DNA of 64,000 nt. Source: Clostridia bacterium (GTDB lineage: Bacteria; UBA6262; WVXT01). Positions within the stretch are counted from its first letter, which is position 1. Each line of letters opens with the position of its first letter. Where the stretch lies: NCBI GenBank assembly GCA_009619095.1, contig WJOT01000029.1, forward strand, positions 736 through 64,735, written 5' to 3'. The translations under genes and the position numbers were made by a program. Below are positions 2,509 through 30,761 of the stretch, piece by piece. The notes under the pieces were generated by a model. The model did no database searches and was not told the origin of the DNA. It saw only the letters and a list, made by a program, of their open reading frames with translations.

Positions 2509-4281
2509 TCAGCTTCTCTTAAACCTTCTATCCAGCTCTTCCCTGGTCAATTTAATCATTGTCGGTCTGCCATGGGGACAGATATGAGGAGATTCACACC
2601 TATTGAGTCTCCTCAGGACTTCGTCCATCTCTCTATCGCTCAAGCTCTGCCCAGCCATAATTGCTGCCCGGCAAGCCATAATTTTAAATATATCAGAAGA
2701 AATTTCTATAGCCATTTTTTTACTCTCTTTTCTTTTCACTTCATCAGAAATCTCATCAATAAGGTCTAAGATAAATTGCTTTTTAATCTCTTTTCCCAGG
2801 ATATGTGGCGTGGCTTTGACCAGGAAAGAAGAGCGTCCAAACTGTTCCATTTCAAAGCCCAATTTGGAGAAAAGGTCTGTATTCGCTATTAATACCTGGA
2901 CATTATGAGGAGGTAGTTCAATCTGGATGGGGAATAGAAGGCGTTGCGACTCTATTTTCTGGTCTTTATAGTCATTTTCCAGCTGTTCATAGAGGATTCG
3001 TTCCCAGGCTGCATGCTGGTCCAGGATTACTATTCCATCTGCACTGCGAGCAACTATGTACAGGTTATCTAATTGTCCCAGCGCCACCATCGCTTCTTTC
3101 TTCACCTCTATTCTCTTTTCTGGCTCAGGAACGTGGAACTTCTTTGGCTGGAACAACTCCTCTGGAGAAATCGATCCCTGCCACTTTTGGCTTTTCACTA
3201 GATAGTCTTTCATTGCTTCTTCAATTCTTCTTTTCCGAAAAGATGAACCTTCAGGATAAGTAGTCTTCTCCTCTATTTCCACCATTGTGACTTCTTTATG
3301 TAGATTTTGCTTGATAGTCTGCATAACAATTGTGTGTATCGTCGGCTCGTTGACAAAGCGCACTTCCTTTTTTGTGGGATGAACGTTTACATCAACCAGA
3401 GATGGTCCAATCTCCATAGAAAGGAAAACACCTGCGTGGCGTGAGGGTGGCAGAAAATCCTTATATCCTTCCCAAGTAGCGTGGCTGATTAGTCGGCTAC
3501 TAATTGCGCGTTTATTTACGAATAAAAATTGGTGTTGACGATTAGTATAAGAAAGATTAGGTTTGGTAATGAAGCCGGAAATTCTCAAAAACTTATTTTC
3601 AAACTGCAGGGGAACGAGGTCCTCCACTATTTTAGTTCCGTATAGAGAAGCGATTCTTTCCAGTAAGGTCTGCTCCCGGGGAAGATTCTTTATGCTATGT
3701 CGACCGTCCTCTTTTAATTCAAAACTTACCTTAGGATGAGACAGGGCAAAATTCTGAACTGCTCTGGTTATCTGCCGACTCTCTGTGGAATCCGCCTTCA
3801 AAAACTTCAGGCGCGCGGGGACATTAGAAAAGAGGTCTTCAACTGTTACTGTAGTTCCCGGTGGACTTCCTGCTTCCAGGAGTTCAAAAGAATTACCCTT
3901 GACTTTTATCTGGCAACCTACAGGACTCTCCTCACCCCGGGTAAGTAAAGTTAAATTAGCTACAGCAGCAATCGAGGGTAGAGCCTCTCCGCGAAATCCT
4001 AAAGTTCTAATTGACTGAAGGTCTTCTAACTCCTTTATCTTATTGGTAGCGTGGCGCTGCAGAGCCAATTCAGCATCTTCTCTGGACATACCCCAGCCGT
4101 CATCAATTACCCGGATTAATTTCTTTCCCCCTCTTCCTATTTCTACGGTAATATGCTTTGCCCCGGCATCCAGAGAGTTTTCTACCAGTTCCTTAACAAT
4201 CGATGCTGGTCTCTCCACAACCTCTCCAGCAGCTATCTTGTTTATCACTTCTTCAGATAAAATTTCAATTTTACCTGCCAT
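2509..4281 (-). CDS. mutL: DNA mismatch repair protein MutL
   Basis: GHKL ATPase N-terminus (KIAAGEVVERPASIVKELVENSLDAG) plus a MutL C-terminal domain. I moved the start to MAGKIEIL because the upstream 38 ORF codons translate a hairpin-repeat array. Confidence 0.9.
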   Translation of the reverse strand: MAGKIEILSEEVINKIAAGEVVERPASIVKELVENSLDAGAKHITVEIGRGGKKLIRVIDDGWGMSREDAELALQRHATNKIKELEDLQSIRTLGFRGEALPSIAAVANLTLLTRGEESPVGCQIKVKGNSFELLEAGSPPGTTVTVEDLFSNVPARLKFLKADSTESRQITRAVQNFALSHPKVSFELKEDGRHSIKNLPREQTLLERIASLYGTKIVEDLVPLQFENKFLRISGFITKPNLSYTNRQHQFLFVNKRAISSRLISHATWEGYKDFLPPSRHAGVFLSMEIGPSLVDVNVHPTKKEVRFVNEPTIHTIVMQTIKQNLHKEVTMVEIEEKTTYPEGSSFRKRRIEEAMKDYLVKSQKWQGSISPEELFQPKKFHVPEPEKRIEVKKEAMVALGQLDNLYIVARSADGIVILDQHAAWERILYEQLENDYKDQKIESQRLLFPIQIELPPHNVQVLIANTDLFSKLGFEMEQFGRSSFLVKATPHILGKEIKKQFILDLIDEISDEVKRKESKKMAIEISSDIFKIMACRAAIMAGQSLSDREMDEVLRRLNRCESPHICPHGRPTMIKLTREELDRRFKRS

Positions 4282-4420
4282 TTTGCTCCACCTTCTCATA
4301 ACCTTATGCATCCCGATTTTCAATCGGGAAATTTGTGTCCCGATGAATCGGGACACGGTTTCAACCGTGCAGAAATTTTCTGGGCACGATTTCAAATCGT
4401 GCAGCTGACTGGGCGACCCT
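4282..4420. repeat. Array of four different short hairpins (REP-like) between the PilZ gene and mutL
   Basis: Palindromes tcccgatt-ttc-aatcggga, gtcccgat-ga-atcgggac, cacggtt-tc-aaccgtg and gcacgatt-tca-aatcgtgc lie in tandem. Confidence 0.6.
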
Positions 4421-8106: not shown

Positions 8107-9465
8107 CTACCTCACCCTCCCCAACAACGACCACGTATACGCCTTTTCTATCTCCACCGGCAACAATTCCCCAATATCCTTACCATCCCCCGAAAAAAAC
8201 ACCCTCTTATTACCCCGCGTCCTTCCCACCAACTTCTTCTCTTTCCGGGCAAACCTCTCCACCATAACTTCTTCCACTTTTCCCAGAAGTCTTCGGTTCT
8301 TCTCCAGCACCATCTTCTCACAGAGTTCATTAAGTTCAGCTAAACGCTCCTTTTTTGTTTCCAGAGGAACATCATCCTTCTCTTTAGCCGCTTGAGTCCC
8401 TGGACGAGCCGAATATTTGAAAGTAAAAGCAGCATCAAATTCAACATCTTCCACCAACCTTAAAGTATCCTCAAAATCCTCTTTCTTCTCCCCAGGAAAG
8501 CCAACCATAAGGTCAGTAGTAACACTTATTTTAGGAATCTCTCTTTTTATCTTATCAATCAATTCTAAATATTGTTGTCTGGTATAGCCCCTGTTCATTC
8601 CCTCCAATATTCTATTAGAGCCAGATTGAGCAGGAAGATGGAGATGCTCACAGATTTTACTCGAATCTCTTATAGTATTAATCAATTTCTCAGAGACATC
8701 CTTAGGATGAGAAGTCATAAAGCGAATCCGTTCCAATCCATTTACTTTTTCCACTTCCCTTAAAAGGTCAGCGAAGTCAGAACTATTGGATCTATAAGAA
8801 TTCACATTCTGTCCCAAAAGCATAATTTCCTTACATCCATCGGCCACCTTCTGCTCTACTTCTGAAACAATATCACTAACAGGTTTTGATTTTTCCCTGC
8901 CCCTGACATAAGGTACAATACAATAAGAACAGAAATTATCACAACCCCGCATAATTGTAACCTGCCCCATTAATTCAGAATTCTTGGCGCATCCATAAGA
9001 CAAAGAACTCCAGAACCCTTCTGCTAACTTGGGCAAATCTCCCTTTACTTCAGTAGCAAGAACTTTCTCATTCGGCTTCTGAAAAGCTTCTTCAATCAAC
9101 TTCGGCAATTCTAATATATTATCTGTTCCCAGAACAATATTCACAAAAGGAGTCTTTTCGAATATTTTACTCTTCAATCTCTGTGCTACACACCCCGCCA
9201 GGACAAAAACTGTAGATGGATTCTCCTTTCTAACTCTTTTCAAGGATGCCAGGTAACTCAGTGCCCTATCTTCAGCATGCTGCCTCACAGAACAAGTATT
9301 GAGAATTATAACATCCGCCCCTTCCGGAAAATCTACCTTCCCATATCCCTCCCTTTCCAGAAGCCTCCCCATAACCTCCGAATCCGCATCATTCATCTGA
9401 CATCCGAAAGTCCTGATATAGACTCTCGGAGGCGATTTTTCATAAGTCTTTGATTTTTCTGGCAT
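8107..9465 (-). CDS. miaB: tRNA-2-methylthio-N6-dimethylallyladenosine synthase (radical SAM methylthiotransferase)
   Basis: UPF0004 N-terminus (YIRTFGCQMNDADSE), radical SAM CDNFCSYCIVP and a TRAM C-terminus. Confidence 0.9.
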   Translation of the reverse strand: MPEKSKTYEKSPPRVYIRTFGCQMNDADSEVMGRLLEREGYGKVDFPEGADVIILNTCSVRQHAEDRALSYLASLKRVRKENPSTVFVLAGCVAQRLKSKIFEKTPFVNIVLGTDNILELPKLIEEAFQKPNEKVLATEVKGDLPKLAEGFWSSLSYGCAKNSELMGQVTIMRGCDNFCSYCIVPYVRGREKSKPVSDIVSEVEQKVADGCKEIMLLGQNVNSYRSNSSDFADLLREVEKVNGLERIRFMTSHPKDVSEKLINTIRDSSKICEHLHLPAQSGSNRILEGMNRGYTRQQYLELIDKIKREIPKISVTTDLMVGFPGEKKEDFEDTLRLVEDVEFDAAFTFKYSARPGTQAAKEKDDVPLETKKERLAELNELCEKMVLEKNRRLLGKVEEVMVERFARKEKKLVGRTRGNKRVFFSGDGKDIGELLPVEIEKAYTWSLLGRVR

Positions 9466-9713
9466 TGTATTTTTTGTTCCTTTTCAAAAAAGAAAAAATT
9501 AAAGGGGGCGAAAAAGGAAAAAGAAAAAATTTTCTTTTGGGCGATTTTGATGTTTTTAAAAAGCAGATTTAATATAAGTTTTTTAGTCTCTTTGTCCATC
9601 ACTTTCTTGTTCGGATCGTAGCCCTCCAAAAACTCCTCTACCCTGTCTAAATAGTCCCTTGAGCGCTCCTTCTCAATTTCTCTAACCTCTTGTAATGCAA
9701 TGAGTTTCATCAT
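9393..9713 (-). CDS. Doubtful small ORF reading out of the SIR2 cassette through the left inverted repeat
   Basis: Only the first ~55 codons (MMKLIALQEVREIEKERSRDYLDRVEEFLEGYDPNKK...) look protein-like. The rest translates the A/T-rich IR and overlaps the miaB start, and there is no clear Shine-Dalgarno. Confidence 0.25.
   Translation of the reverse strand: MMKLIALQEVREIEKERSRDYLDRVEEFLEGYDPNKKVMDKETKKLILNLLFKNIKIAQKKIFSFSFFAPFNFFFFEKEQKIQCQKNQRLMKNRLRESISGLSDVR
9493..9570. repeat. Left arm of a long inverted repeat bounding the SIR2 cassette
   Basis: AAAAAATTAAAGGGGGCGAAAAAGGAAAAAGAAAAAATTTTCTTTTGGGCGATTTTGATGTTTTT plus AAAAAGCAGATTT. Its reverse complement recurs at 11757-11875, with 2 mismatches in the 65-nt core. 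Confidence 0.8.
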
Positions 9714-9733
9714 TTATCTATTCAGAATCATAA

Positions 9734-10798
9734 CTAGAGGTTTTTGGAAAACTCTGCAAACGTTTTATGATCCGCGTATCCTCCTTTACTACAACCTCTC
9801 AAAAGCCTTTTTATTCGTTTTACTGTTTTTTTGCTTTTATCGACTATTATTATCTTTTTAAATTTTTTCTTTTTCCTCTCCTTCGTAACCCTAGATAATA
9901 TAGCTGATAGGTGATAATCGGTTGCAGTGAGAGAACAGCCTAGAAATATTAAACATTCAGCATCTTTTAAACTAAGATAACACCGTCGCCATAAGCCTTT
10001 CCAAAACTTATTATTAAAAAATTTTGTATAAAGGGGAGGAATAAAAAATCTGATCAACCTTTCTCTTTTAATGTTATAAGTTCTCGGAACCCGTGACATT
10101 ATTATTTTAGATGGTGGACGTCTCGATAAAACATCATCCAGTTTGGACATTTTCCCTTTTGCAAACCAATTTAATGATCCATGAGGTTTTAATAACCTCA
10201 CTTGATTCATATCCGCGAGTGGTTTTCGGTGAATATCATCGTACTTTATTTTACTTCTAGCCTCAAAACCATATCCTAACTCTGGAGTCCATCCAAAATT
10301 ACAAAGTTCGACATCAAGCAAAGTATCGTAATTCAACGTTATTAAAGTGTCTTTGCCAGAAAGCCTAGCGACCAATTTTTCATAATGATTAATGCTTTTC
10401 TTTTGATAATGGTTAGACTGAATATATATGAATAACTTGATCAATAAGGAGATAAAATCTTTGATTTCTATTCTATAACCAGGTTTTCTTGTTCTTCCTC
10501 TACTTTTTTTAAATATCTCTGGTATGTCTTTAGACATAAACAAGACATTAAATACATCCTCCATAGTGGGGTAATGTTGAGATGTAAGAAGGGTTTCGTT
10601 TATAAATGAAATTAGTCGTGAAAAAGAATTTTTATTAGCTTGTCCACCTTCGATTTTGACAAAGCGTGCAAGCATATCAAAATAATCTCTATTTAGAGGT
10701 AATCTAATATTGCCCGGCTTGATACTAGAAATAGCACCTCGTGAAGCACCCGCTCCTATAATTATCGTGGTTCTATATTCTTTTTTCTTAATTTTCAT
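9734..10798 (-). CDS. Stand-alone SIR2-like (SIR2_2 type) protein, putative NAD+-consuming defence effector
   Basis: Rossmann start IIIGAGASRGA, LITLNYDTLLD (Asn motif), LLKPHGSLNW (His motif) and FLGCSLTATDYH. This pattern resembles ThsA/DSR-type SIR2 domains. Confidence 0.7.
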   Translation of the reverse strand: MKIKKKEYRTTIIIGAGASRGAISSIKPGNIRLPLNRDYFDMLARFVKIEGGQANKNSFSRLISFINETLLTSQHYPTMEDVFNVLFMSKDIPEIFKKSRGRTRKPGYRIEIKDFISLLIKLFIYIQSNHYQKKSINHYEKLVARLSGKDTLITLNYDTLLDVELCNFGWTPELGYGFEARSKIKYDDIHRKPLADMNQVRLLKPHGSLNWFAKGKMSKLDDVLSRRPPSKIIMSRVPRTYNIKRERLIRFFIPPLYTKFFNNKFWKGLWRRCYLSLKDAECLIFLGCSLTATDYHLSAILSRVTKERKKKKFKKIIIVDKSKKTVKRIKRLLRGCSKGGYADHKTFAEFSKNL

Positions 10799-10802
10799 GA
10801 AA

Positions 10803-11021
10803 CTATTTCTTCTTGTACAGCGTTAATGTCACTCTGACAGAATTAGCCGACTTATTTAATAATTTTGCTATCTCTTTTGGTTTAAAACCAGCATTATAAA
10901 GAAGTCTCGTCTGATCTTTAAGTTCTTTACCATATGTAATCCCAGAGGCAATTAATTTAATCAAGGTATCAATCTTACTTTCTAAAACTTTGAAATCATA
11001 TTCTTTTCTTTTCTTCTTCAT
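10803..11021 (-). CDS. Small HTH protein, paralog 3 of 3
   Basis: Helical N-terminus plus KPKEIAKLLNKSANSVRVTL (HTH). I set the start at MKKKRKEY, 8 nt after the upstream stop. Confidence 0.5.
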   Translation of the reverse strand: MKKKRKEYDFKVLESKIDTLIKLIASGITYGKELKDQTRLLYNAGFKPKEIAKLLNKSANSVRVTLTLYKKK

Positions 11022-11029
11022 AATGCCTT

Positions 11030-11332
11030 CTATACCAGTTTTTTGGGATATTTTGTTCCCCATTTGCCTTTAATAAACTCTACAAGGCCTGTTTTCTGAC
11101 ATTCAATGCTAAATAGTCTTACGTTTTCATGTGATGTCTTCAATTTTTTTGCAATATCTTCAAGACTATTTTTACCATTAAACATTTTATACATTTGTTT
11201 CCTTTTACCTCTGACTTTGCTTAATTCTCCTAAAGCTTTATCCTTTTGAGCAGAGGCAATAATATTTATCCCTCGTTTTATATCTTTTAACGCTTCTAAG
11301 ATCTCTTTCAGCACTTTTAAATTTTCGTCCAT
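11030..11332 (-). CDS. Small HTH protein, paralog 2 of 3
   Basis: ATG at 11332 is preceded by AGGAGGTG. SLEDIAKKLKTSHENVRLF is the HTH, and the tail is YPKKLV. Confidence 0.55.
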   Translation of the reverse strand: MDENLKVLKEILEALKDIKRGINIIASAQKDKALGELSKVRGKRKQMYKMFNGKNSLEDIAKKLKTSHENVRLFSIECQKTGLVEFIKGKWGTKYPKKLV

Positions 11333-11352
11333 ATTTTCACCTCCTAACAAAT

Positions 11353-11658
11353 TTACAATTTTTTAGGAAATTTTGCTTTGCCGTAAGAAGCTTTTATTAA
11401 AGTAACAAAACTATAAGCAAGGAGCCCATCAACCACATATTGAATCGTGCGGCTTGTTTTACCAACTTTCTTAGCTATTTCTTTAATCTGTCTTTTCCCA
11501 TTGCATAAGTTTAAAACCTTCCTATTAACACCTGTATCCAAAAAATCATTTCTTTCTTTCTCAATATTACGTCTATTCGCTAAGACCAACAGTTTTATGC
11601 CTTTATTGATTTCCTGTAAAGTAATTTTTAATTCTTCATTTATGTCTTCCTGAGCCAT
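11353..11658 (-). CDS. Small HTH protein, paralog 1 of 3
   Basis: GGAGGTG Shine-Dalgarno. QIKEIAKKVGKTSRTIQYVV is the HTH, and the tail FPKKL is shared with paralog 2. Confidence 0.55.
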   Translation of the reverse strand: MAQEDINEELKITLQEINKGIKLLVLANRRNIEKERNDFLDTGVNRKVLNLCNGKRQIKEIAKKVGKTSRTIQYVVDGLLAYSFVTLIKASYGKAKFPKKL

Positions 11659-11756
11659 ATTCCACCTCCATGCATTTTATTGTTTCTCATTACCCACCAA
11701 GTCCTTTTTAAAGGGGAAGCAGTCACTGCGTGACTGCTGGGTGGGCGAGGTAATTC

Positions 11757-11875
11757 AAATCTGCTTTTTAAAGGCCATAAGGCCTGCGGATTGCCCGAAG
11801 GGCAAGACGCAAAAACATCAAAATCGCCCAAAAGAAAATTTTTTCTTTTTCTTTTTTCACCCCCTTTAATTTTTT
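11757..11875. repeat. Right arm of the inverted repeat (carries a ~40 nt hairpin insertion)
   Basis: Reverse complement of 9493-9570. About 40 nt (ggccataaggcc / ttgcccgaagggcaa hairpins) are inserted between the 13-nt inner part and the 65-nt core (11811-11875). Confidence 0.8.
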
Positions 11876-11934
11876 AAAAGGTGCTTTGTATCACATCAAG
11901 GCCTGACACCATCTTTCTTTTTACCTGTTTCACT

Positions 11935-14900
11935 CTACTCTAAAATTGTTATGAACTCCGCAATGATTTTAAGTTCTCCTTCTTCACATCGCGGTAAGAT
12001 TATAGGTTTGTATGCCTTATTCAAAGGCTCAAGGATTATTTTTTCATGTTGCCAAGTACCATCCCGCTTAAATCTCTTTTCACTATAATATTTCTTAACC
12101 GTATAGCTTCCGCCTGTATCAATATCACCTATATCATGATGTTGTGCAAGAACTATTTTCCCTTGACGGCTTCCAACAACATCTGCGCTAAATACACAAT
12201 AACTGTTGTTGGGAATCTTCGGTTCCATGGAATAGCCTACGACTTTTGCAACGAACATCCTTTTATCCAATTTCCGCCCAATATCCACCTTCATCCATCC
12301 TTCAGGCTCCACGGCTAATCCATCGCCAAATTTTCCCGCGGCCGTCTCTAAAGAATAAATTGGTAATACGCTAATAAATTTTTCGCTCTCTTCGATCTCA
12401 CCATCAGAAACGATGTCACTAACAAATAATTCTGACTTTGGAAGCCTCTCCTCAATTATTTTTGAACCAATGCCAGGAAAATAATCATCGCTTACTCCGA
12501 CTGCCTTTCCAGCCATTTCATAAATGCTCTGTCCACGGCCGAAATAAGAATCATAAACATGCTGATATACAACATCGCATTTACTGTTGAACAGCTCAGG
12601 TGTATACCGTTCGGGCAAACCCTCTAAGGTCTCCTCAATTGCCACCCGCACAACCGCTCGAGTCTGTTGCCTCTTACGCCAATCAAGGACAAGTTTCTCC
12701 CGCCTAAGTGCCTGCAGCAGTTCTCGCGCCACCTTCTTAACCCGCTGCTTTTCTTTCTCGGTTAAATCCATCTCCGGCTTAGTCAATAAATCAAACACCG
12801 CTAGCTCCTCTTCCGTCAGTCCCCCAGCAATCGCTCGCTTTTCCTCCTCACCGAGCTCTTTTGCAAACTCCGTTAACTTCTTAAAGAAAACCTCCAGATT
12901 ATAAGCACCGGCATTATATTCATCTAGCATCTTCTGGAATTTTTCCATAAAATCCATCCTGCTTCTGTTCAGCCAAACCATCAATTTTAATTTTCTACCT
13001 ATAGCGCTCTTGAACTTTTCTGCCTCCATGCGTTTATGGCCAATTTTAAACTTTTCCTTCAACGCCTCAAAGTCTATCTTGCTTAAATCTATAAGACGGT
13101 CCTTCCCTTCGGGAGGCTTAATGACATAATCCGCAATCCTCACAGAGTCATCAAGCAATCCTTCAACCCTGCCCATTACCTCATCTATAGCCTCAGGTGG
13201 CGAGGGTTCTGGGCTAAGCAATCTAATCTTATTTGCAAGCACGACTATCAGTTTCCGTATAGAACGAAACTCATTCGCCAAAGGGTCTGGCAGAATAGCT
13301 TTATAAAGTCTGTTCACGACAGCAGCCAATGATAAATACTTCCTCTTTGATTCCTCATCAACGATAATCGACTCAACAGCATCGTCCAACAACCGTACAC
13401 GGCTAAAGCCTTCCGCTGCTTGAAACTCTGCCTGGAGTTTCAACAAATCAACGCCTCTCTCAATGCAGAATTCCTTCGTCTCCTTTACCGCTTCCCTTAA
13501 TAACTCAACAAGCTCACCTTTAGGCCTGACTGGTGTCTCGCCGCCTTCAGCCCCGGTACCATATATCGCCAACGCTTTTTGTAAATCCCTAAATACGCCG
13601 ATATAATCAACAATTAAACCGTTATTCTTCTCCCCAAAAACCCTGTTTGCCCGGGCAATCGTCTGCATAAGCGTGTGATTACGCATAGGTTTATCAAGAT
13701 ACATTGTGGAACAGCACGGCACATCAAAACCTGTCATCCACATCGCGCACACAAACACAATCCGGAACGGATCCTCTGGCTTTTTAAACTTGGTATCCAG
13801 ATCTTCCCTCACCATCCGCCTGCGATGCGGCGTAATATCCACGCCCTTCCTTCTAAGCTCTTCAATTTCATTTTGGGACTGCGAGACAACGACAGCCAAA
13901 TCAGTTTCTTTCATATACTTAAGCTTTTCCTCTAATTCTTCTTTTTCGATACCGTAACTACGCCTGATTTTTGCTTCTAAGTCACTTTTATATTGTTCCC
14001 AGTACTTTTGCACCTTATCATACATCTTAACGGCTGTGGCCTTATCAATACTAACCACCATCGCCTTCCCCATAAATCCTCGGCCCATAAAATGATCAAC
14101 AATATCCTCAGCAATTCTTTCTAAACGGGTATCACGGGTAATCACCTGATATTCCCTGCTGAACTCCCGCTCAACCCTTCTCTCCTGCTCCTCATCTAAC
14201 GCCGCCTCATCAAGCAGCTGTTCCATTTCCGCGTTTAAGTCTCTGTTAGTCAGCTGCAGTTCCGGTATTCTATTCTCATAATAAAGTGGTACAGTCGCCC
14301 TATCATCCGCTGACTGCTTGAAGTTATAAATACTGACATAATCGCCAAAAACCTCTTTGGTCTTCTCCTCTCCTGCAATAAGCGGCGTTCCTGTAAACCC
14401 TATGAACGCCGCTTTAGGGAGGGCATTACGCATATTCAAGGCGAAGATGTCATATTGGGTACGGTGGGCCTCATCGGTAATGACAATAATATCTGACCGG
14501 TCTGAAAGCTTGGAGTAAATGGCTCCTTGTCTTGTGTGAAATTTCTGAATCAACGTAAATATGTACCTGTGATCCTCGCGTAATAATTGCTTCAAATGCT
14601 CGCCGCTGTCAGCCTGCACATATTGCTCGGTTATAGCCCCCGCATTAACAAAATTTTTATAAATCTGCCGGTCCAGGGACTGTCGGTCCGTCACGATTAC
14701 AAAAGTATAGTTGCCGGGGATCGTACGCAGGATCTTCTGAGAGAAAAATATCATTGAGTAGCTCTTGCCGCTACCTTGAGTATGCCAGAAGACGCCAAGC
14801 CTTCCCTTTTCTTCCTCTATCCGCTTAAATTTCTCAATGACGTTATTTACGCCAAGATACTGATGGTTCTTTGCCATCATCTTAACAAGACCGCCTCCAG

Positions 14901-15681
14901 CCTCACTAAACAGAATAAAATTCTCAACTATATCAAATAACCGCTCTGGCTCGCACGTGCCCCGGATCATTGTCTCTAAGGAAACAACTCCCTTTTCTCC
15001 TTCGCTATTAATCTTCTTCCATTCAACAAAATTCTCCCACTCGGATGTTATAGTGCCAACTCTGCTTTGACTGCCGTTTGACAATATGATGATTGCGTTG
15101 TACAGAAAAACCTGGGGGATTGTCTCTTTATAGTCCCTAAGGTTTCTCCTGTAAGCGTGTTCTAATCTCCTGTGCGATGCCTTAAGCTCAATAAAAACCA
15201 AAGGCAGGCCATTTACAAAACCGACTAAATCCGCCCGCCTTTTATACATCTCCCCCGAAATCCAAAGCTGGGATGCCAGTAAGAAGTCATTGTTAGCTGA
15301 CTCATTCCAATCAATAACTTTGACTTTTATGTAGGTCTCCTCCCGATCATCGGTTGCCCTTCTTGCCAGTACTGTAACGCCATCCCTTAACATTTTGTAA
15401 ATCTCGCAGTTGGCGTAAGTAGGATTCATGGCGCTGCGGTCTTTGATGAGCTCTTCTATGGCTAATTGGATAACTGTATCGGGAAGTTCGGGATTGAGTC
15501 TTCGAAGGGCTAGTTTGAGCCTTTTGATTAAAACAACCTCGGATGTTGTCTCTCTACCCAATATACCGCCAGGACCCAGCGTCTCATCAAAACAATTAAT
15601 CGTCTCCCATCCTAAACGGGAAAAGAGCTCTATTGCGGGCTGTTCAACAAGGGAACCTTCTGTAAAGTTATTGTTCCTCAT
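11935..15681 (-). CDS. hsdR: Type I restriction enzyme R subunit fused to a C-terminal LexA/S24-like peptidase domain
   Basis: HsdR N-terminus (EQPAIELFSRLGWE), SF2 helicase motifs (HTQGSGKS, TDEAHR, QTIARANR) and a C-terminal extension. The last ~145 aa carry LPIYSLETAAGKF...VVGYSMEP...GKIVLAQ...YTVKKY, matching the S24 Ser/Lys fold. Confidence 0.9.
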   Translation of the reverse strand: MRNNNFTEGSLVEQPAIELFSRLGWETINCFDETLGPGGILGRETTSEVVLIKRLKLALRRLNPELPDTVIQLAIEELIKDRSAMNPTYANCEIYKMLRDGVTVLARRATDDREETYIKVKVIDWNESANNDFLLASQLWISGEMYKRRADLVGFVNGLPLVFIELKASHRRLEHAYRRNLRDYKETIPQVFLYNAIIILSNGSQSRVGTITSEWENFVEWKKINSEGEKGVVSLETMIRGTCEPERLFDIVENFILFSEAGGGLVKMMAKNHQYLGVNNVIEKFKRIEEEKGRLGVFWHTQGSGKSYSMIFFSQKILRTIPGNYTFVIVTDRQSLDRQIYKNFVNAGAITEQYVQADSGEHLKQLLREDHRYIFTLIQKFHTRQGAIYSKLSDRSDIIVITDEAHRTQYDIFALNMRNALPKAAFIGFTGTPLIAGEEKTKEVFGDYVSIYNFKQSADDRATVPLYYENRIPELQLTNRDLNAEMEQLLDEAALDEEQERRVEREFSREYQVITRDTRLERIAEDIVDHFMGRGFMGKAMVVSIDKATAVKMYDKVQKYWEQYKSDLEAKIRRSYGIEKEELEEKLKYMKETDLAVVVSQSQNEIEELRRKGVDITPHRRRMVREDLDTKFKKPEDPFRIVFVCAMWMTGFDVPCCSTMYLDKPMRNHTLMQTIARANRVFGEKNNGLIVDYIGVFRDLQKALAIYGTGAEGGETPVRPKGELVELLREAVKETKEFCIERGVDLLKLQAEFQAAEGFSRVRLLDDAVESIIVDEESKRKYLSLAAVVNRLYKAILPDPLANEFRSIRKLIVVLANKIRLLSPEPSPPEAIDEVMGRVEGLLDDSVRIADYVIKPPEGKDRLIDLSKIDFEALKEKFKIGHKRMEAEKFKSAIGRKLKLMVWLNRSRMDFMEKFQKMLDEYNAGAYNLEVFFKKLTEFAKELGEEEKRAIAGGLTEEELAVFDLLTKPEMDLTEKEKQRVKKVARELLQALRREKLVLDWRKRQQTRAVVRVAIEETLEGLPERYTPELFNSKCDVVYQHVYDSYFGRGQSIYEMAGKAVGVSDDYFPGIGSKIIEERLPKSELFVSDIVSDGEIEESEKFISVLPIYSLETAAGKFGDGLAVEPEGWMKVDIGRKLDKRMFVAKVVGYSMEPKIPNNSYCVFSADVVGSRQGKIVLAQHHDIGDIDTGGSYTVKKYYSEKRFKRDGTWQHEKIILEPLNKAYKPIILPRCEEGELKIIAEFITILE

Positions 15682-18626: not shown

Positions 18627-20615
18627 TTATCCTTTCTGTAAATTGCAGTATCGGTGACTTATCTTACCATTCTTTATTTTCGTTTTACCACCCTCTGAAT
18701 ATCTTTCTAAATGATCAACATGTGCATCTTCTATAAACACAATTTCATTACCACAAAGATGACAAACTTTATTCGCATCGTGAAGAGCTTTTTTCTCTTC
18801 AAAGCTATAAAAGCGACGGTCATTCTCAGGGTACCCTACAACTTCCCTTAACTTCTGAAACCATTTCTCGGTGCGTAATTTTACCTTTTGAGTATCATAT
18901 GTGCCTTTCTCTATAGATTCGATAAACGCCATATTTTTAGTCATAAGCTCAATAAACGCATCTTTGATGAGCATGGCTTTTTTTATAATATCTCGTTTTT
19001 CGTATTGAGTAAAGCCATACATTTGCACATCAAATATACCTTCGTTTATTTTATCTTCGCGATATCCATTGGCATCATCTTCATCACCTAACTGCCAGCG
19101 CCTAAAGGATAAATCGCCAAATACGGTTTGGCACAACTCTACTGAATTCTTAAACATAGCTGTCTTTTCTTCTTTCTGCTTTTCAGATATTTCACGATTA
19201 CTTTCCATATAACTGTTAAGGAAGCTTGTTAGTGATCCTTTATATTTTCTTTCAGTTAAATCTGTAAAAGCAAAAAAGCGAAGAATTCTCTCCATATCAA
19301 TCATCCGTTTATGAACTCCTCTAAGGCCTTGAATTCTTTGAAAATCTTTATTTTCAGCTAATGTTTTCAGTAGGTTATTAAAGCTTCCTCTATAAATGCA
19401 ATTGCGGAGTTCCTGTTCATTAAGTTTGACCGATCCCCGATTTAACCTTTCGAAGATGTCGAATTTAATGTCCTTATGGGATTCCTTTAAAATTTTAATT
19501 ACTCTGATAGGATAGTCGGCTATCGAATCTTGTAATTCCTCAGATAGATCTGTATAAGTTTTTCCATTAAGCTCCTTTAAAACACGAAGCCCAGTAAGTT
19601 TAAAGCCGTCCTTCTTCATGAAATTATAAAAGGTCAGCATCCTCTGCTGCCCATCAACTACTAATTCCTTTCCAGCATTTTCTTCTGCCACATAAATAAC
19701 AGGAATGGGGACCCTGAGCAAAACCGATTCAATAAGCCTACTTTTCAACTTTGGTTTATTATCCCAAATATAATAACGCTGAAATTCTGCACGGGCAATT
19801 AACTTCCCCTTGTCAACTTTCTCACATAAAAGTTTTATAGGAGGATCTCCTGCCTCTGATATAATCTTCCTATCACTTACGGGAATATCAAAGAAACCTT
19901 CCTCTTCAAGCCGCTCATCAAAATCTACATCATCTGAAGAAATGACCTCTTTTTTACCCCATAGTTCTTTAACAGGGGCGAAATAAAAGAACCGAGATAG
20001 AGACCGAGTATTTTTAAATGTGAACTTCTCTCGGAAAGATATAACAGCATTCTTGGTAAGAACAATCTGCTCACCCCAGCTTTTCTGCTTAATCGAGGAT
20101 ACATTGCCTAGCTTAAAAGCATCAATAATCTTATACCTGTGAGACAAAGATAGAATGCTCAGATTTTCCATGGGGCTATATACAAACATTAGATCATTTA
20201 TCATATTGGCATTCTGGCCTGTTAGTCTATTTCTCTCGGTGTTAGCAGAATAGAGCTTATTAAGAAGCTCTACTTTTTCGTCATCAGAATCGCATTGCAG
20301 AATGGATGTTACTAGCTTATATAGCTTCTTATCTTGCTTAAATTCCTGCATAATCCTACGCCATGAGCCCTGAGGTATTAGGGATCTTGCAGATGGCTCT
20401 ATGTCGGAATCTGCGATACCCTTAGCATGGCTATCGAGAAAGCGAATATAGTAATCGATGTCTTCGGGGCTTAGTTTTTCGCCGGAAGGAAGGATTTCAT
20501 CCCAAAATTCCCTGAACTCCTGACTTTGCTGTTCCCATATTTGCCCTGCATCTTCTTCGTTGAACTCTGTAAGAAATTGGGCATGTAATGCTTTTAATTC
20601 CGCTGTCTTGCTCAT
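18627..20615 (-). CDS. DUF262 (ParB-like nuclease, GmrSD N-domain) protein with a C-terminal HNH motif and a ~270 aa unknown N-terminal domain
   Basis: FQRYYIWD and VVDGQQRMLTF are DUF262 motifs. The C-terminus CHLCGNEIVFIEDAHVDHLERYSEGGKT..NGKISHRYCN is HNH. Confidence 0.8.
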   Translation of the reverse strand: MSKTAELKALHAQFLTEFNEEDAGQIWEQQSQEFREFWDEILPSGEKLSPEDIDYYIRFLDSHAKGIADSDIEPSARSLIPQGSWRRIMQEFKQDKKLYKLVTSILQCDSDDEKVELLNKLYSANTERNRLTGQNANMINDLMFVYSPMENLSILSLSHRYKIIDAFKLGNVSSIKQKSWGEQIVLTKNAVISFREKFTFKNTRSLSRFFYFAPVKELWGKKEVISSDDVDFDERLEEEGFFDIPVSDRKIISEAGDPPIKLLCEKVDKGKLIARAEFQRYYIWDNKPKLKSRLIESVLLRVPIPVIYVAEENAGKELVVDGQQRMLTFYNFMKKDGFKLTGLRVLKELNGKTYTDLSEELQDSIADYPIRVIKILKESHKDIKFDIFERLNRGSVKLNEQELRNCIYRGSFNNLLKTLAENKDFQRIQGLRGVHKRMIDMERILRFFAFTDLTERKYKGSLTSFLNSYMESNREISEKQKEEKTAMFKNSVELCQTVFGDLSFRRWQLGDEDDANGYREDKINEGIFDVQMYGFTQYEKRDIIKKAMLIKDAFIELMTKNMAFIESIEKGTYDTQKVKLRTEKWFQKLREVVGYPENDRRFYSFEEKKALHDANKVCHLCGNEIVFIEDAHVDHLERYSEGGKTKIKNGKISHRYCNLQKG

Positions 20616-29365: not shown

Positions 29366-29507
29366 GGGGACACAATACTTAATTATTCTTCTTTGGAACT
29401 ATGACATCTGCTCCTTCGTATAAAACGCAGACTGAAGTCTGCTACTCCTTTTCAAACGCAGACCAAGGTCTGCTACTCCAAACGCTCCGATGAATCGGAG
29501 CTACTCC
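29366..29507. repeat. REP array C (21-mer plus three hairpin units)
   Basis: 21-mer at 29366-29386; units at 29425-29448, 29456-29479 (variant stem agacc/ggtct) and 29480-29507. Confidence 0.85.
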
Positions 29508-29593
29508 TTCCTTTCCAGAAGCCTCACCATAACTTCCGAATCCACATCGTTCATCTGACAGCCAAGGGTCCTAATGAAAACTTTTTTACTCAC
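29508..29593 (-). pseudogene. 5' fragment of a miaB-like methylthiotransferase gene (about 28 codons)
   Basis: Translates as VSKKVFIRTLGCQMNDVDSEVMVRLLERKE. About 65 nt (about 29510-29575) are near-identical at nucleotide level to miaB positions ~9353-9420. The frame is cut off by REP array C. Confidence 0.6.
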
Positions 29594-29738
29594 GGTCAGA
29601 ATTTTGAACCAAAACTAAATTAAATTCCTTTTGTCAATCATCTTCAAGAAGTCTCATTGCACCCATGACGCCAGCCAGCTGGTAATTCGTAAAGTCTCTG
29701 GTTTTCCTTATTCATAAATTTCTCAGGGTTTTCTTGCT

Positions 29739-29882: not shown

Positions 29883-30761
29883 TTAGTTTACCAAGCATTC
29901 TTTTTCTTGTTTCATCATCGGAACTACCGTTCCAACTCCACAAGCGTTGATTCCCGCTCGTCCAGCGGTATTTAATCCTATATTCAGAATATTTATCGCG
30001 GCATTTAAATCCCTATCCATCGTCATCCCACAAACAGGACAAGAGTAGACCGTTTTTCTCAATGGCATTTCTTGAATATTGCCACAACAGCTACACTTCT
30101 TACTTGTAGGCTCTCTTGGCCCTATCGTGATGAAGAGTTTCCCATTCCACTTTGCCTTGTAATCCAGTTGCCTCCTGAACTCAAACCATCCTGCATCAGA
30201 AATTGCCTTTGATAGACAACGATTTTTCATCATGCCCTTGACATTCAAATCCTCTAAGACAACGGAGTGCTTGGCTATCACACTCGCGGATGTCTTGTGA
30301 AGAAAATCTAATCTTTGATTTCTGATTTTACGATATAGCTTTTGAACCTGCCTCTTTTGCTTCTTCCTGTTTTGACTGCCTTTTCCTTTCTTGCTCAACT
30401 TTCTTTGAGCATCTGCCAGTCGTTTCTCTGATTTTCTTAAGTGCTTTGGATTATCTATCACAGTCCCATCAGACAAAGTTGCAAAGGATTTTAAGCCTAC
30501 ATCAATGCCTACAAGGCTACTACTATCTTTTGGTCTATCTGGCAGTTCAAACTCACATAGAACAGAACAATACCAGTGATCTCCGTCCTGGATGATAGTA
30601 ATCTTTTTAGGTTCGCCTTGTAAGGGGCGATGTTTAATCCATTTCACCTCACCAACTTTGGGAACGAAAACATACCTTTTGCTTAATCTCCATTTTTGAG
30701 GAACGGTAAAACTATCTCGTTCGAGCCCTTTTCTTTTGAATCTAGGAAATCTTGATGTCTT
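29883..30761 (-). pseudogene. tnpB: IS200/IS605-family TnpB (OrfB), 5'-truncated
   Basis: RuvC-like residues in GIDVGLK, VLEDLN and DRDLNAAINI, plus a zinc ribbon CSCCG..CPVCG. The frame extends upstream without a start (..RFKRKGLERDSFTVPQKWR..) to an in-frame stop at 30762-30764 beside a REP 21-mer. Roughly the first quarter of a typical TnpB is absent. Confidence 0.8.

What the first reader, a model, noticed from the sequence alone, without database searches (positions are those of the whole stretch)
9493..11875. Inverted-repeat-bounded cassette: three mini-HTH paralogs plus a stand-alone SIR2-like protein (candidate new defence system)
A 65-nt near-perfect inverted repeat (9493-9557 vs 11811-11875), extended by 13 nt on the inner side, brackets a tight operon. 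Gene spacings are 4-20 nt and strong GGAGG sites are present. The operon encodes three ~70-100 aa HTH proteins and then a 354-aa protein with SIR2_2-type motifs (GAGxS, NYD, HGS). Known SIR2 defence systems pair the NADase with TIR (Thoeris), HerA, pAgo or STAND modules, or use very large DSR proteins. A small SIR2 accompanied only by three paralogous DNA-binding mini-proteins does not match those layouts. No transposase or recombinase lies inside the repeats. The unit therefore looks like a non-autonomous mobile cargo cassette or an invertible segment. The left arm also forms the region immediately upstream of miaB.
Basis: partly seen in the sequence, partly recalled or inferred. Interest (0 to 1): 0.8.

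Follow-up and report, generated by a model that had tools for sequence, protein, structure and literature searches.

The report
SIR2 defence operon in decayed recombinase cassette
The inverted repeats are the two ends of a worn-out mobile cassette, built around a serine recombinase, that plugs into the start of the tRNA-modification gene miaB and normally carries one anti-phage system; here it carries an undescribed pairing of small DNA-binding proteins with a minimal SIR2 NAD-degrading enzyme.

Summary
There is a 65-nt inverted repeat (63/65) around a tight minus-strand operon of three small HTH genes and a 354-aa SIR2_2 protein with its catalytic Asn/Asp/His conserved.

- Correction: a recombinase is present. 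Positions 9558-9707 hold the C-terminal remnant of a large serine recombinase (LSR).
- The repeat arms are the hallmark of a widespread LSR unit. About 25 loci in several phyla (MAG labels) have 140-180-nt arms, 93-100% identical within a locus. The unit sits in front of miaB and supplies its 5' leader and first 21 codons.
- Between the distal arm and the LSR is a cargo slot. It is empty in 8 loci. Elsewhere it holds Gabija, PsyrT, Ppl, TIR, KAP NTPase and others. In the window it holds the HTH-SIR2 operon.
- Extension: the operon is a conserved module in its own right. All 27 close SIR2 homologues examined have 1-5 small HTH genes (two unrelated families) abutting the SIR2 start; 0 of 24 distant homologues do.
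- No PADLOC model matches the SIR2 beyond partial, generic hits (nor the HTH proteins), no NCBIfam model reaches its cut-off, and the searchable papers do not describe the pair.

Most likely it is a toxin-antitoxin-like, NAD-depleting abortive-infection system on a now immobile carrier. Function is untested.

The parts
9401..9557 (-). Proximal arm of the recombinase unit. It carries the read-through tail of the recombinase ORF, an A/T-rich leader and element-borne miaB codons 1-21 (ATG at 9465). It ends at ...TTCGGATG|. Only 9493-9557 is repeated in the window.
   Evidence: 92% identical over 157 nt to the L101 arm. The junction is conserved in more than 20 loci.
9558..9707 (-). C-terminal remnant of a large serine recombinase gene. 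9558-9570 also forms the 13-nt inner extension of the repeat.
   Evidence: tblastn of the 565-aa L002 recombinase: residues 449-548 match window 9707-9402 at 86%. L002 has Resolvase, Recombinase and Zn_ribbon_recom domains. Homology to L001 breaks at about 9712.
9734..10798 (-). Stand-alone SIR2_2 protein, 354 aa; predicted NADase effector.
   Evidence: PF13289 E=1.6e-7. Invariant G15/G17/A18, N156-Y-D158, H206-G-S208. AF2 pLDDT 89. Foldseek top hits are the SIR2 of SIR2-HerA, Avs5, DSR2 and ThsA.
10803..11021 (-). HTH3, 72 aa, type B small HTH (sigma-70 region 4-like) with a basic C-terminal tail. Its stop lies 4 nt before the SIR2 ATG.
   Evidence: Sigma70_r4_2 E=7.5e-4, HTH_23. jackhmmer groups it with the small genes abutting SIR2 in L003, L005, L007, L010, L012, L023, L026 and L027.
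11030..11332 (-). HTH2, 100 aa, type A winged-helix protein; paralog of HTH1.
   Evidence: 25.5% identity to HTH1 over 94 aa, E=4e-9. AGGAGGTG lies 6 nt before the ATG.
11353..11658 (-). HTH1, 101 aa, type A winged-helix (MarR/Csa3-like) protein.
   Evidence: PADLOC CasR wHTH E=1.5e-5. NCBIfam cas_HTH E=2e-4. Family of at least 187 proteins, some named MarR by their sources.
11659..11756 (-). Conserved cargo leader of the recombinase unit: CGCCCACCC, then a hairpin (AGCAGTCAC-GCA-GTGACTGCT), then a C-run and the ribosome-binding site.
   Evidence: The same leader precedes unrelated cargo in L101, L096, L094, L097, L098, L100, L102, L103, L104 and L111. Hairpin variants are compensatory: TTGC/GCAA, TTAC/GTAA, TCAC/GTGA.
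11757..11875 (+). Truncated distal arm: 16-nt inner repeat (11757-11772), 38-nt two-hairpin insertion (11773-11810), 65-nt repeat (11811-11875). The outer ~90 nt of a full arm are missing.
   Evidence: only arm positions 1-65 match; the insertion is present in most relatives and absent in L103.
29505..29595 (-). Second, partial miaB 5' fragment (VSKKVFIRTLGCQMNDVDSEVMVRLLERK), probably the displaced original. 29510-29560 is a 51-nt direct repeat of 9352-9402.
   Evidence: blastn 92% over 51 nt. Sequence and alignment.

Best explanation
Window 9401-11875 is a degenerate member of a family of large-serine-recombinase units.

Anatomy of an intact unit:
- Two long inverted arms, each carrying an A/T-rich leader and the first 21 codons of miaB.
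- A conserved leader hairpin.
- One cargo slot.
- The recombinase gene, whose 3' end runs into the proximal arm.
- The unit sits at the conserved ..FG|CQMN.. codons of miaB, so miaB keeps a working 5' end.

State in the window:
- The recombinase is reduced to its last ~50 real codons.
- The distal arm is cut to 65 nt and has 2 mismatches.
- The unit is therefore immobile.

Cargo:
- The slot holds a four-gene operon that is itself a conserved module.
- Small HTH proteins are translationally coupled to a minimal SIR2 enzyme. There are two families: type A winged-helix and type B sigma-r4-like.

Inferred mechanism:
- The SIR2 protein is an NAD+ hydrolase that has no sensor domain of its own.
- The HTH proteins both repress the operon and hold SIR2 inactive, as a type II antitoxin does.
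- Phage infection removes or titrates them. SIR2 then depletes NAD+ and the infection aborts.

Shown: the anatomy, the conservation, the intact catalytic motifs, and defence cargo in the same slot elsewhere.
Inferred: NADase activity, the defence role, and the direction of HTH control.
For: Carrier element:
- A recombinase remnant lies in the window. Full recombinases in the same position occur in L001, L002 and L101.
- The repeat recurs: 4 of 12 metagenome contigs hit by a 23-mer carry it twice in inverted orientation, with arms of 76-157 nt at 100%.
- In 38 genome loci with the recombinase, about 25 have arms of 83-300 nt, mostly 93-100% identical. 30 have miaB directly downstream.
- Host MiaB bodies are only 37-50% identical to the window's. 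The first 21 codons lie inside the arm, which is 87-94% identical in DNA among the closest elements.
- Slot content: Gabija (GajA 1e-239, GajB 1e-122), PsyrT 3e-250, Ppl, HerA-like, TIR, KAP NTPase, Abi_alpha, DUF2971, RhuM. The slot is empty in 8 loci.
- The cassette is 32-34% GC against 42-45% in the flanks.

Operon:
- 27/27 close SIR2 loci have an HTH gene ending -21 to +31 nt from the SIR2 start; 0/24 distant ones do.
- The closest operons have 2A+2B, 1A+2B and 2A+1B arrangements.
- Three further type A proteins, picked independently, sit directly upstream of a gene on the same strand. In two cases it is a SIR2_2 gene. In the third it is an unannotated 275-aa product. One locus lies beside type I R-M and DarT-Macro.
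- The catalytic residues are invariant.
- The structure matches defence SIR2 NADases best.
Against: - No experiment: NADase activity, toxicity and phage protection are all untested.
- Up to five tandem HTH genes is unusual for an antitoxin and fits a sensor or adaptor array at least as well.
- No sigma-70-like promoter was found in the leader, and promoter-like matches in the region do not exceed chance.
- The host lineage has no close genome available, so there is no empty site.
- The relation between the 2.4-kb unit and the ~20-kb stretch that ends at the second miaB fragment (29.5 kb) is unresolved. That stretch includes housekeeping-like genes.
Confidence: 0.6

Rival explanations
1. Sensor-array model. 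The small HTH proteins are not inhibitors. They are the sensors or activators: they recognise phage DNA or a phage protein and then assemble with, and switch on, an otherwise inert SIR2 NADase, as HerA or a tail-tube protein does for other SIR2 effectors. Extra paralogs widen the range of triggers.
For: - SIR2 has no sensor domain.
- HTH copy number varies from 1 to 5, and two unrelated families are interchangeable.
- The nearest structures are SIR2 enzymes that are activated by partner assembly.
- Weak similarity of HTH2 and HTH3 to terminase small-subunit HTH domains.
Against: - The terminase similarity is below every curated cut-off and is typical of generic HTH matches.
- The 4-nt coupling of the last HTH gene to SIR2 and the basic tails do not discriminate between the models.
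- No binding data exist.
Confidence: 0.25
2. Regulator-only or non-defence model. The HTH proteins are ordinary transcription factors. The SIR2 protein is a housekeeping or regulatory deacylase or ADP-ribosyltransferase that happens to sit in a mobile slot.
For: - SIR2-family enzymes include protein deacylases.
- Family members also occur between housekeeping genes (L003, L007, L155).
- The close family is small: 90 clusters at E<1e-30 among 1.84 billion representatives.
Against: - The genomic position differs in nearly every locus, as expected for mobile accessory genes.
- Several copies lie beside restriction, Mrr, DarTG or Hypoth_Ymh genes.
- The slot it occupies here holds known defence systems in relatives.
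- The best structural matches are defence NADases, with canonical sirtuins scoring lower.
Confidence: 0.1
3. Active invertible-segment model. The two arms in the window are still recombined, by a recombinase acting in trans or by RecA, so the segment flips and changes expression of miaB or of the operon.
For: - In related loci the recombinase-side arm is found next to either kind of flank: L002 vs L101, L106 vs L108, L123 vs L143.
- Arms are 93-100% identical within a locus but about 75-94% between loci, as expected if they recombine with each other.
Against: - In the window the distal arm is truncated to 65 nt and has lost the outer junction, with 2 mismatches. The recombinase is a fragment.
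- No second recombinase of this family is in the window. The other large ORFs that were annotated are unrelated.
- Only one orientation is in the assembly, and no reads are available.
Confidence: 0.05

Closest known systems
SIR2-HerA (Nezha) anti-phage system
   Same: The SIR2_2-type effector is the closest solved structure and sequence (8sub_G E=1e-8, TMq 0.54; 8w9l profile E=3e-4). The same N-x-D and H-G-S catalytic motifs are present. NAD+ depletion is the presumed output.
   Different: There is no HerA ATPase in the operon or next to it. The partners are 70-100-aa HTH proteins. Sequence identity to the solved SIR2 is about 13-15%.
NAD-degrading toxin-antitoxin pairs with an HTH antitoxin (RES-Xre, NatT-NatR; aRES defence)
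   Same: A small DNA-binding protein is encoded immediately upstream of, and coupled to, an NAD+-degrading enzyme. The module is accessory and mobile. This resemblance is by gene layout and from my knowledge of those families and the abstracts listed.
   Different: The toxin fold is SIR2, not RES. There are up to five upstream HTH genes from two families rather than one Xre antitoxin. Neutralisation has not been shown.
DSR1/DSR2, Thoeris ThsA, SPARSA and Avs5 SIR2 effectors
   Same: They share the SIR2 NADase fold; all appear among the Foldseek hits.
   Different: Those effectors carry or pair with a sensor: large C-terminal domains, SLOG plus TIR ThsB, short pAgo/APAZ, or a STAND ATPase. None is present here.
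Large-serine-recombinase integrative elements (phage serine integrases; SCC-type cassette carriers; skin/SPbeta-type gene-interrupting elements)
   Same: The recombinase has the Resolvase-Recombinase-Zn ribbon architecture. It is 33-34% identical to Paenibacillus and Streptococcus phage serine integrases. It inserts site-specifically in a conserved gene and carries accessory cargo.
   Different: - The arms are 140-180-nt near-perfect inverted repeats, and each carries a leader plus the first 21 codons of the target gene.
- The target gene is repaired rather than interrupted.
- The minimal unit is about 2.1 kb with no other genes.
- The recombinase ORF has no stop of its own inside the arm.
- I found no paper that combines serine recombinase, miaB and inverted repeat.
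Serine-invertase switches (Hin/Gin/Pin)
   Same: A recombinase gene lies inside a segment bounded by inverted repeats. Both orientations relative to the flanks are seen among related loci.
   Different: The recombinase is a large serine recombinase, not a small invertase. The arms are six times longer than hix/gix sites. No expression difference between the two states has been demonstrated.

Membership tests
SIR2_2 (PF13289) NAD-dependent enzymes | Match to the family model above the curated cut-off | tested here: met
   32 bits vs 24.5, E=1.6e-7
SIR2_2 (PF13289) NAD-dependent enzymes | Rossmann GxG loop plus catalytic Asn/Asp and His | tested here: met
   G15-A-G17-A-S, N156-Y-D158 and H206-G-S208 are invariant in 31 sequences. 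These motifs align with those of a solved SIR2.
SIR2_2 (PF13289) NAD-dependent enzymes | NAD+ hydrolase or deacylase activity | not testable with these tools
   Needs an enzyme assay
Thoeris | ThsB TIR protein plus ThsA with a SLOG domain | tested here: not met
   No TIR or SLOG hit for any of the four operon proteins or the remnant ORF
SIR2-HerA | Adjacent HerA-type ATPase | tested here: not met
   The operon holds only HTH genes. The neighbours are the recombinase remnant and hsdR.
DSR1/DSR2 | Single large protein (about 1000 aa) with a C-terminal sensor region | tested here: not met
   354 aa, a single domain in the AF2 model
SPARSA / Avs5 | Short pAgo with APAZ, or a fused STAND NTPase | tested here: not met
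   No such domains
Type II toxin-antitoxin module | Small DNA-binding gene directly upstream of, and coupled to, the effector gene | tested here: met
   4-nt spacer here. Spacing is -21 to +31 nt in 27/27 loci.
Type II toxin-antitoxin module | Effector is toxic alone and is neutralised by the upstream protein | not testable with these tools
   Needs expression tests
Large-serine-recombinase mobile element | Intact recombinase with a catalytic Resolvase domain | tested here: not met
   Only the last ~100 codons of the ORF remain in the window. Relatives are intact.
Large-serine-recombinase mobile element | Conserved element/target junction | tested here: met
   The proximal junction ...TTCGGATG|TCAGATGAA is the same as in more than 20 loci. 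The distal junction is lost in the window.
Invertible segment | Both orientations present | tested here: inconclusive
   Seen between related loci. Not testable for the window without reads.
IS/MITE-type element | Terminal inverted repeats flanked by a target-site duplication | tested here: not met
   No direct repeat outside 9493 and 11875 (TTCAAAAAAG vs AAAAGGTGCT). No further copies in the window.

The most novel reading that the evidence does not exclude
Two linked novelties.
(1) Arrays of tiny HTH proteins act as the infection sensors or licensing factors of a minimal SIR2 NADase. That would be a new family of NAD-depleting immunity spread across many bacterial phyla and at least one archaeal lineage.
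(2) The carrier is a new class of serine-recombinase cassette shuttle. Its twin arms each donate a leader and a 21-codon first 'exon' to miaB-family genes, so the unit can sit in either orientation, or between two such genes as in L107. It swaps one defence system per slot.
Probability: 0.3. Interest if true: 0.8.

Novelty: new variant of a known kind. Interest (0 to 1): 0.62.

Why it matters
- The operon would add a compact SIR2 layout (about 2 kb), with only small DNA-binding partners, to the known NAD-depleting defences. It would also raise the question of how an enzyme with no sensor domain is licensed.
- The carrier offers a practical discovery handle. The slot between a conserved leader hairpin and the recombinase start holds known systems in several loci (Gabija, PsyrT, Ppl). 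The unannotated genes found there (for example L112, L113, L137, L101, L098) are therefore strong candidates for new defence genes in poorly studied phyla (Omnitrophota and Elusimicrobiota by MAG label).
- The unit also shows an unusual way for a recombinase element to use an essential-pathway gene as a landing site without breaking it.

Tried and rejected
- Rfam scan of 9000-12500 at E<=1: no hit. The arms and leader are not a described RNA.
- Promoter/terminator scan of 9300-12100: matches do not exceed shuffles. A TGGACA-16-TATATT match at 9598-9571 upstream of miaB is noted but is not evidence.
- Search for close relatives of the window's MiaB, to find an empty site: best hit 47% identity, so the test is not possible. 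An earlier attempt failed on the reading frame.
- Direct repeat of miaB sequence left of the distal arm in 15 related loci: none. The 51-nt repeat at 29.5 kb is particular to the window.
- Fused HTH-SIR2 proteins among more distant homologues: none found. The 400-450-aa relatives carry C-terminal coiled coils instead.
- Close SIR2 or recombinase relatives in viral contigs: none.
- NCBIfam: no model for the SIR2 protein.
- Attempts to read a dyad-symmetric att site from the junctions gave only a loose outward consensus, TG|N-C-N-N-W-T-G-G. I do not rely on it.
- MITE or common intergenic repeat: rejected. There are only two copies in 64 kb, and all external copies are tied to the recombinase.
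- Assembly artefact: rejected. The arms differ at 2 positions, and the same layout is seen in dozens of independent assemblies.
Full report
**1. The observation**

The repeat finder reports arms 9493-9557 and 11811-11875: 65 nt, 97% complementary, 2253 nt apart. It also reports a 16-nt perfect pair at 9555-9570 / 11757-11772. A 64-nt pattern from the left arm hits only these two places with at most 2 mismatches, and none of 100 shuffles gave a hit.

All genes between the arms are on the minus strand.
- HTH1: 11658..11353.
- HTH2: 11332..11030. I take the ATG behind AGGAGGTG rather than the upstream TTG.
- HTH3: 11021..10803.
- SIR2: 10798..9734.
- Spacers are 20, 8 and 4 nt.

Pfam places the 354-aa protein in SIR2_2 above the curated cut-off. 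The three small proteins get only weak HTH matches: Sigma70_r4_2, HTH_23, HTH_47, TrmB. PADLOC gives generic SIR2 models only, with the best match partial at E=8e-10. It also gives a CasR/Csa3 winged-helix match for HTH1.

**2. The left arm is recombinase-element DNA**

An exact 23-mer from the repeat found two genome contigs, L001 (an Omnitrophota MAG) and L002. In both, the sequence lies between miaB and a large serine recombinase gene that reads into it.

The L002 protein is 565 aa and has Resolvase, Recombinase and Zn_ribbon_recom domains. Its residues 449-548 match window 9707-9402 at 86%.

Homology to L001 breaks at about 9712, which is 22 nt from the SIR2 stop.

**3. The inverted repeat is a family trait**

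The same 23-mer in metagenomes gave 12 contigs. Four of them carry it twice in inverted orientation about 3 kb apart, with arms of 76-157 nt at 100% complementarity.

L101 shows the full plan:
- distal arm 1084-1240;
- a hairpin-rich leader 1241-1352;
- two cargo genes;
- a 541-aa recombinase;
- proximal arm 4232-4388;
- then miaB.

A search with the recombinase returned 47 genome loci. By MAG label they come from Omnitrophota, Elusimicrobiota, Auribacterota, Saganbacteria and others. I scanned 38 of them with a script.
- 30 have miaB directly downstream of the recombinase.
- About 25 have an inverted copy of the recombinase 3' region of 83-300 nt, mostly 93-100% identical.
- The more distant recombinase lineage (52-53% identity, including Velamenicoccus archaeovorus) lacks the repeat.

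The arm always ends at ...T(T/A)CGG(A/C/T)TG|, followed by (T/C)CA(G/A)ATGAA. This is the Cys codon of the conserved FGCQMN motif of MiaB.

Host MiaB proteins are only 37-50% identical to the window's. The first 21 codons lie inside the arm, which is 87-94% identical in DNA among the closest elements. The 21 residues read alike in the window, L101 and L105, and less so in L001 and L095. The element therefore supplies miaB's 5' leader and N-terminus.

Three further points:
- The unit also occurs with non-miaB DNA at one or both ends (L002, L099, L116, L119, L123).
- In L107 it sits between two miaB-like genes, each fed by an arm.
- Three pairs of loci show the recombinase-side arm against either kind of flank: L002/L101, L106/L108 and L123/L143. 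So both orientations exist in nature.

I cannot tell whether this reflects inversion or independent insertion.

**4. The right arm in the window is a truncated distal arm**

Only arm positions 1-65 are present.

The '38-nt gap' between the 65-nt block and the 16-nt block is a two-hairpin insertion. Most relatives have it at the same point, and L103 lacks it.

Inside it lies the conserved leader: CGCCCACCC, a hairpin with compensatory variants, then a C-run. In every relative this leader directly precedes the first cargo gene. In the window it precedes HTH1.

The window unit therefore has the standard order and orientation. It has lost most of the recombinase and the outer ~90 nt of the distal arm, which now abuts the 3' end of hsdR. 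It cannot move by itself.

**5. The slot carries defence genes**

The DNA between the distal arm and the recombinase start is 80-377 nt in 8 loci and 1.4-6.8 kb in 14 others. Its ORFs always run in the same direction as the recombinase.

| Locus | Slot content | Evidence |
|---|---|---|
| L118 | Gabija | GajA 1e-239, GajB 1e-122 |
| L116 | PsyrT plus a second gene | 3e-250 |
| L111, L117 | Ppl | 3e-43, 1e-33 |
| L120 | HerA-like | PADLOC HerA |
| L109 | TIR-effector-like | PADLOC |
| L103 | TIR_2 protein | Pfam |
| L100 | KAP NTPase | Pfam |
| L096 | Abi_alpha-like | Pfam |
| L097 | DUF2971 | Pfam |
| L119 | RhuM | Pfam |
| L114 | Hypoth_Ymh (one of five genes) | Pfam |

Several slot genes have no annotation.

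The window's operon sits in exactly this slot. It is 32-34% GC against 42-45% around it. This is strong guilt-by-position evidence for a defence role.

**6. The operon is a conserved module independent of the carrier**

The SIR2 protein has about 66 close homologues of roughly 350 aa, all at E<1e-46. In a library of 1.84 billion representatives there are 90 clusters at E<1e-30.

I examined 27 close-family loci and 24 distant ones with jackhmmer on upstream ORFs.
- Every close locus has at least one small HTH gene ending -21 to +31 nt from the SIR2 start.
- No distant locus has one.
- Type A (about 100 aa, winged helix) includes HTH1 and HTH2. It is the single partner in loci labelled Acidobacteriota, Planctomycetota and Verrucomicrobiota.
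- Type B (65-85 aa) includes HTH3. It occurs in loci labelled Omnitrophota, Aenigmatarchaeota, Anaerolineae and Terriglobia, and in unbinned metagenome contigs, in up to five copies.
- The window's own clade combines both types: 2A+2B in L238/L239, 1A+2B in L003, 2A+1B here.

HTH1 and HTH2 are paralogs (E=4e-9). HTH3 is not detectably related to them.

The type A family has at least 187 members. Three picked independently on long contigs each sit directly upstream of a gene on the same strand. In two cases it is a SIR2_2 gene, one of them beside type I R-M and DarT-Macro. In the third it is an unannotated 275-aa product.

DNA homology between the window operon and L003/L237-L239 stops at the ends of the coding block. 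None of those loci has arms or a recombinase. The repeats belong to the carrier, not to the operon.

**7. The enzyme**

The 31-sequence alignment keeps GAGA(S/T)RGA, PLNxD, LNYDT, K(P/L)HGSxNW and GCS..D.H invariant.

A profile search of PDB sequences finds only the SIR2 subunits of SIR2-HerA, aligned through the NYD and HGS motifs.

The AlphaFold model is confident (pLDDT 89, pTM 0.89). Its best Foldseek matches, in order, are SIR2-HerA SIR2 (E=1e-8), Avs5, DSR2, canonical sirtuins and ThsA.

There is no extra domain that could act as a sensor. More distant relatives of 400-450 aa add a C-terminal coiled coil, not an HTH.

**8. Mechanism**

Shown:
- a coupled HTH-SIR2 gene pair;
- intact catalytic motifs;
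- accessory, mobile distribution;
- a defence-type slot.

Inferred, in order of preference:
- (a) An antitoxin-like model. The HTH proteins repress the operon and hold SIR2 inactive until infection removes them.
- (b) A sensor model. The HTH proteins detect phage DNA or protein and switch SIR2 on.
- (c) Plain regulators of a non-defence enzyme.

Tight coupling, co-variation of partner family with SIR2 clade, and basic C-terminal tails fit (a) and (b) about equally. The variable copy number leans towards (b). I give (a) a modest edge because it matches known NAD-degrading toxin-antitoxin layouts. Expressing SIR2 alone would separate the two.

**9. Wider context**

A 51-nt direct repeat of miaB codons 22-38 lies at 29510-29560. 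It is attached to a different, shorter MiaB N-terminus. This suggests that everything from about 9403 to about 29505 was inserted into miaB.

That stretch holds:
- type I R-M, whose HsdR carries a C-terminal S24 peptidase domain;
- a GmrSD-HNH enzyme;
- also a 7TM-HD protein, a P-type ATPase and a PAS histidine kinase.

The history of this stretch is not simple and I leave it open.

**10. Comparison and novelty**

No PADLOC model matches the SIR2 beyond partial, generic hits, and the HTH proteins get only weak winged-helix (CasR/Csa3) matches. No NCBIfam model reaches its cut-off. Four full-text searches found no paper on a small-HTH plus roughly 350-aa SIR2 system, nor on a serine recombinase with long inverted arms at miaB.

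Both parts are variants of known kinds: SIR2 NADase immunity or a toxin-antitoxin-like module, and a serine-recombinase cargo element. Neither is a new category.

The finding is real and worth follow-up. It needs the correction that the repeats mark a decayed recombinase unit rather than a recombinase-free cassette.

Noticed in passing
window 11935-15681 (-): The type I restriction HsdR subunit carries a C-terminal Peptidase_S24 (LexA-like) domain, residues 1135-1242 (E=5.5e-9). This is an unusual fusion that might couple restriction to self-cleavage or DNA-damage signalling.
   Followed up: no
window 29395-29595: A second, shorter miaB 5' fragment (29505-29595, minus strand) lies next to tandem 31-nt hairpin units (29407-29479, 2.4 copies; GGAGTAGCAGACnnnnGTCTGCGTTT). 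A TnpB/OrfB_IS605 gene follows at 29883-30647.
   Followed up: partly
L107 5624-6954 and 11471-11959: Both arms of one recombinase unit run into two different miaB-like genes in divergent orientation. The distal gene is followed by miaA. The arms are about 99% identical up to the Cys codon and about 70% beyond it.
   Followed up: partly
L101 4232-4396; L002 345-560; L099 1915-2151: The recombinase ORFs have no stop codon inside the arm. They read through the leader and the miaB start, so their last 3-25 residues depend on what flanks the arm.
   Followed up: no
L002 about 840-900: A REP-like hairpin (GTCATTCCCGCGAAAGCGGGAATC) sits in frame inside the recombinase gene. Similar hairpins fill the flanks of L099 and L101.
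   Followed up: no
L143, L144, L126, L127, L128, L133, L147, L124: Minimal units: two 140-175-nt arms plus the recombinase, with only 80-377 nt in the slot. These are about 2.1-kb elements with no cargo.
   Followed up: partly
window 11690-11756; L101 1300-1340 and relatives: The leader hairpin before the cargo shows compensatory stem changes across loci (TTGC/GCAA, TTAC/GTAA, TCAC/GTGA). This suggests a conserved DNA or RNA structure at the cargo boundary. It has no Rfam match.
   Followed up: partly
L155 4891-5142; L005 7098-7793: Some HTH-SIR2 loci have extra conserved neighbours: an 83-aa sigma-70 r4-like gene overlapping the SIR2 stop (L155), and a Hypoth_Ymh gene downstream (L005/L006).
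   Followed up: no
window 18627-20615 (-): A GmrSD_N plus HNH protein (type IV restriction-like) lies directly after the type I R-M operon. Together they form a defence cluster next to the cassette.
   Followed up: no
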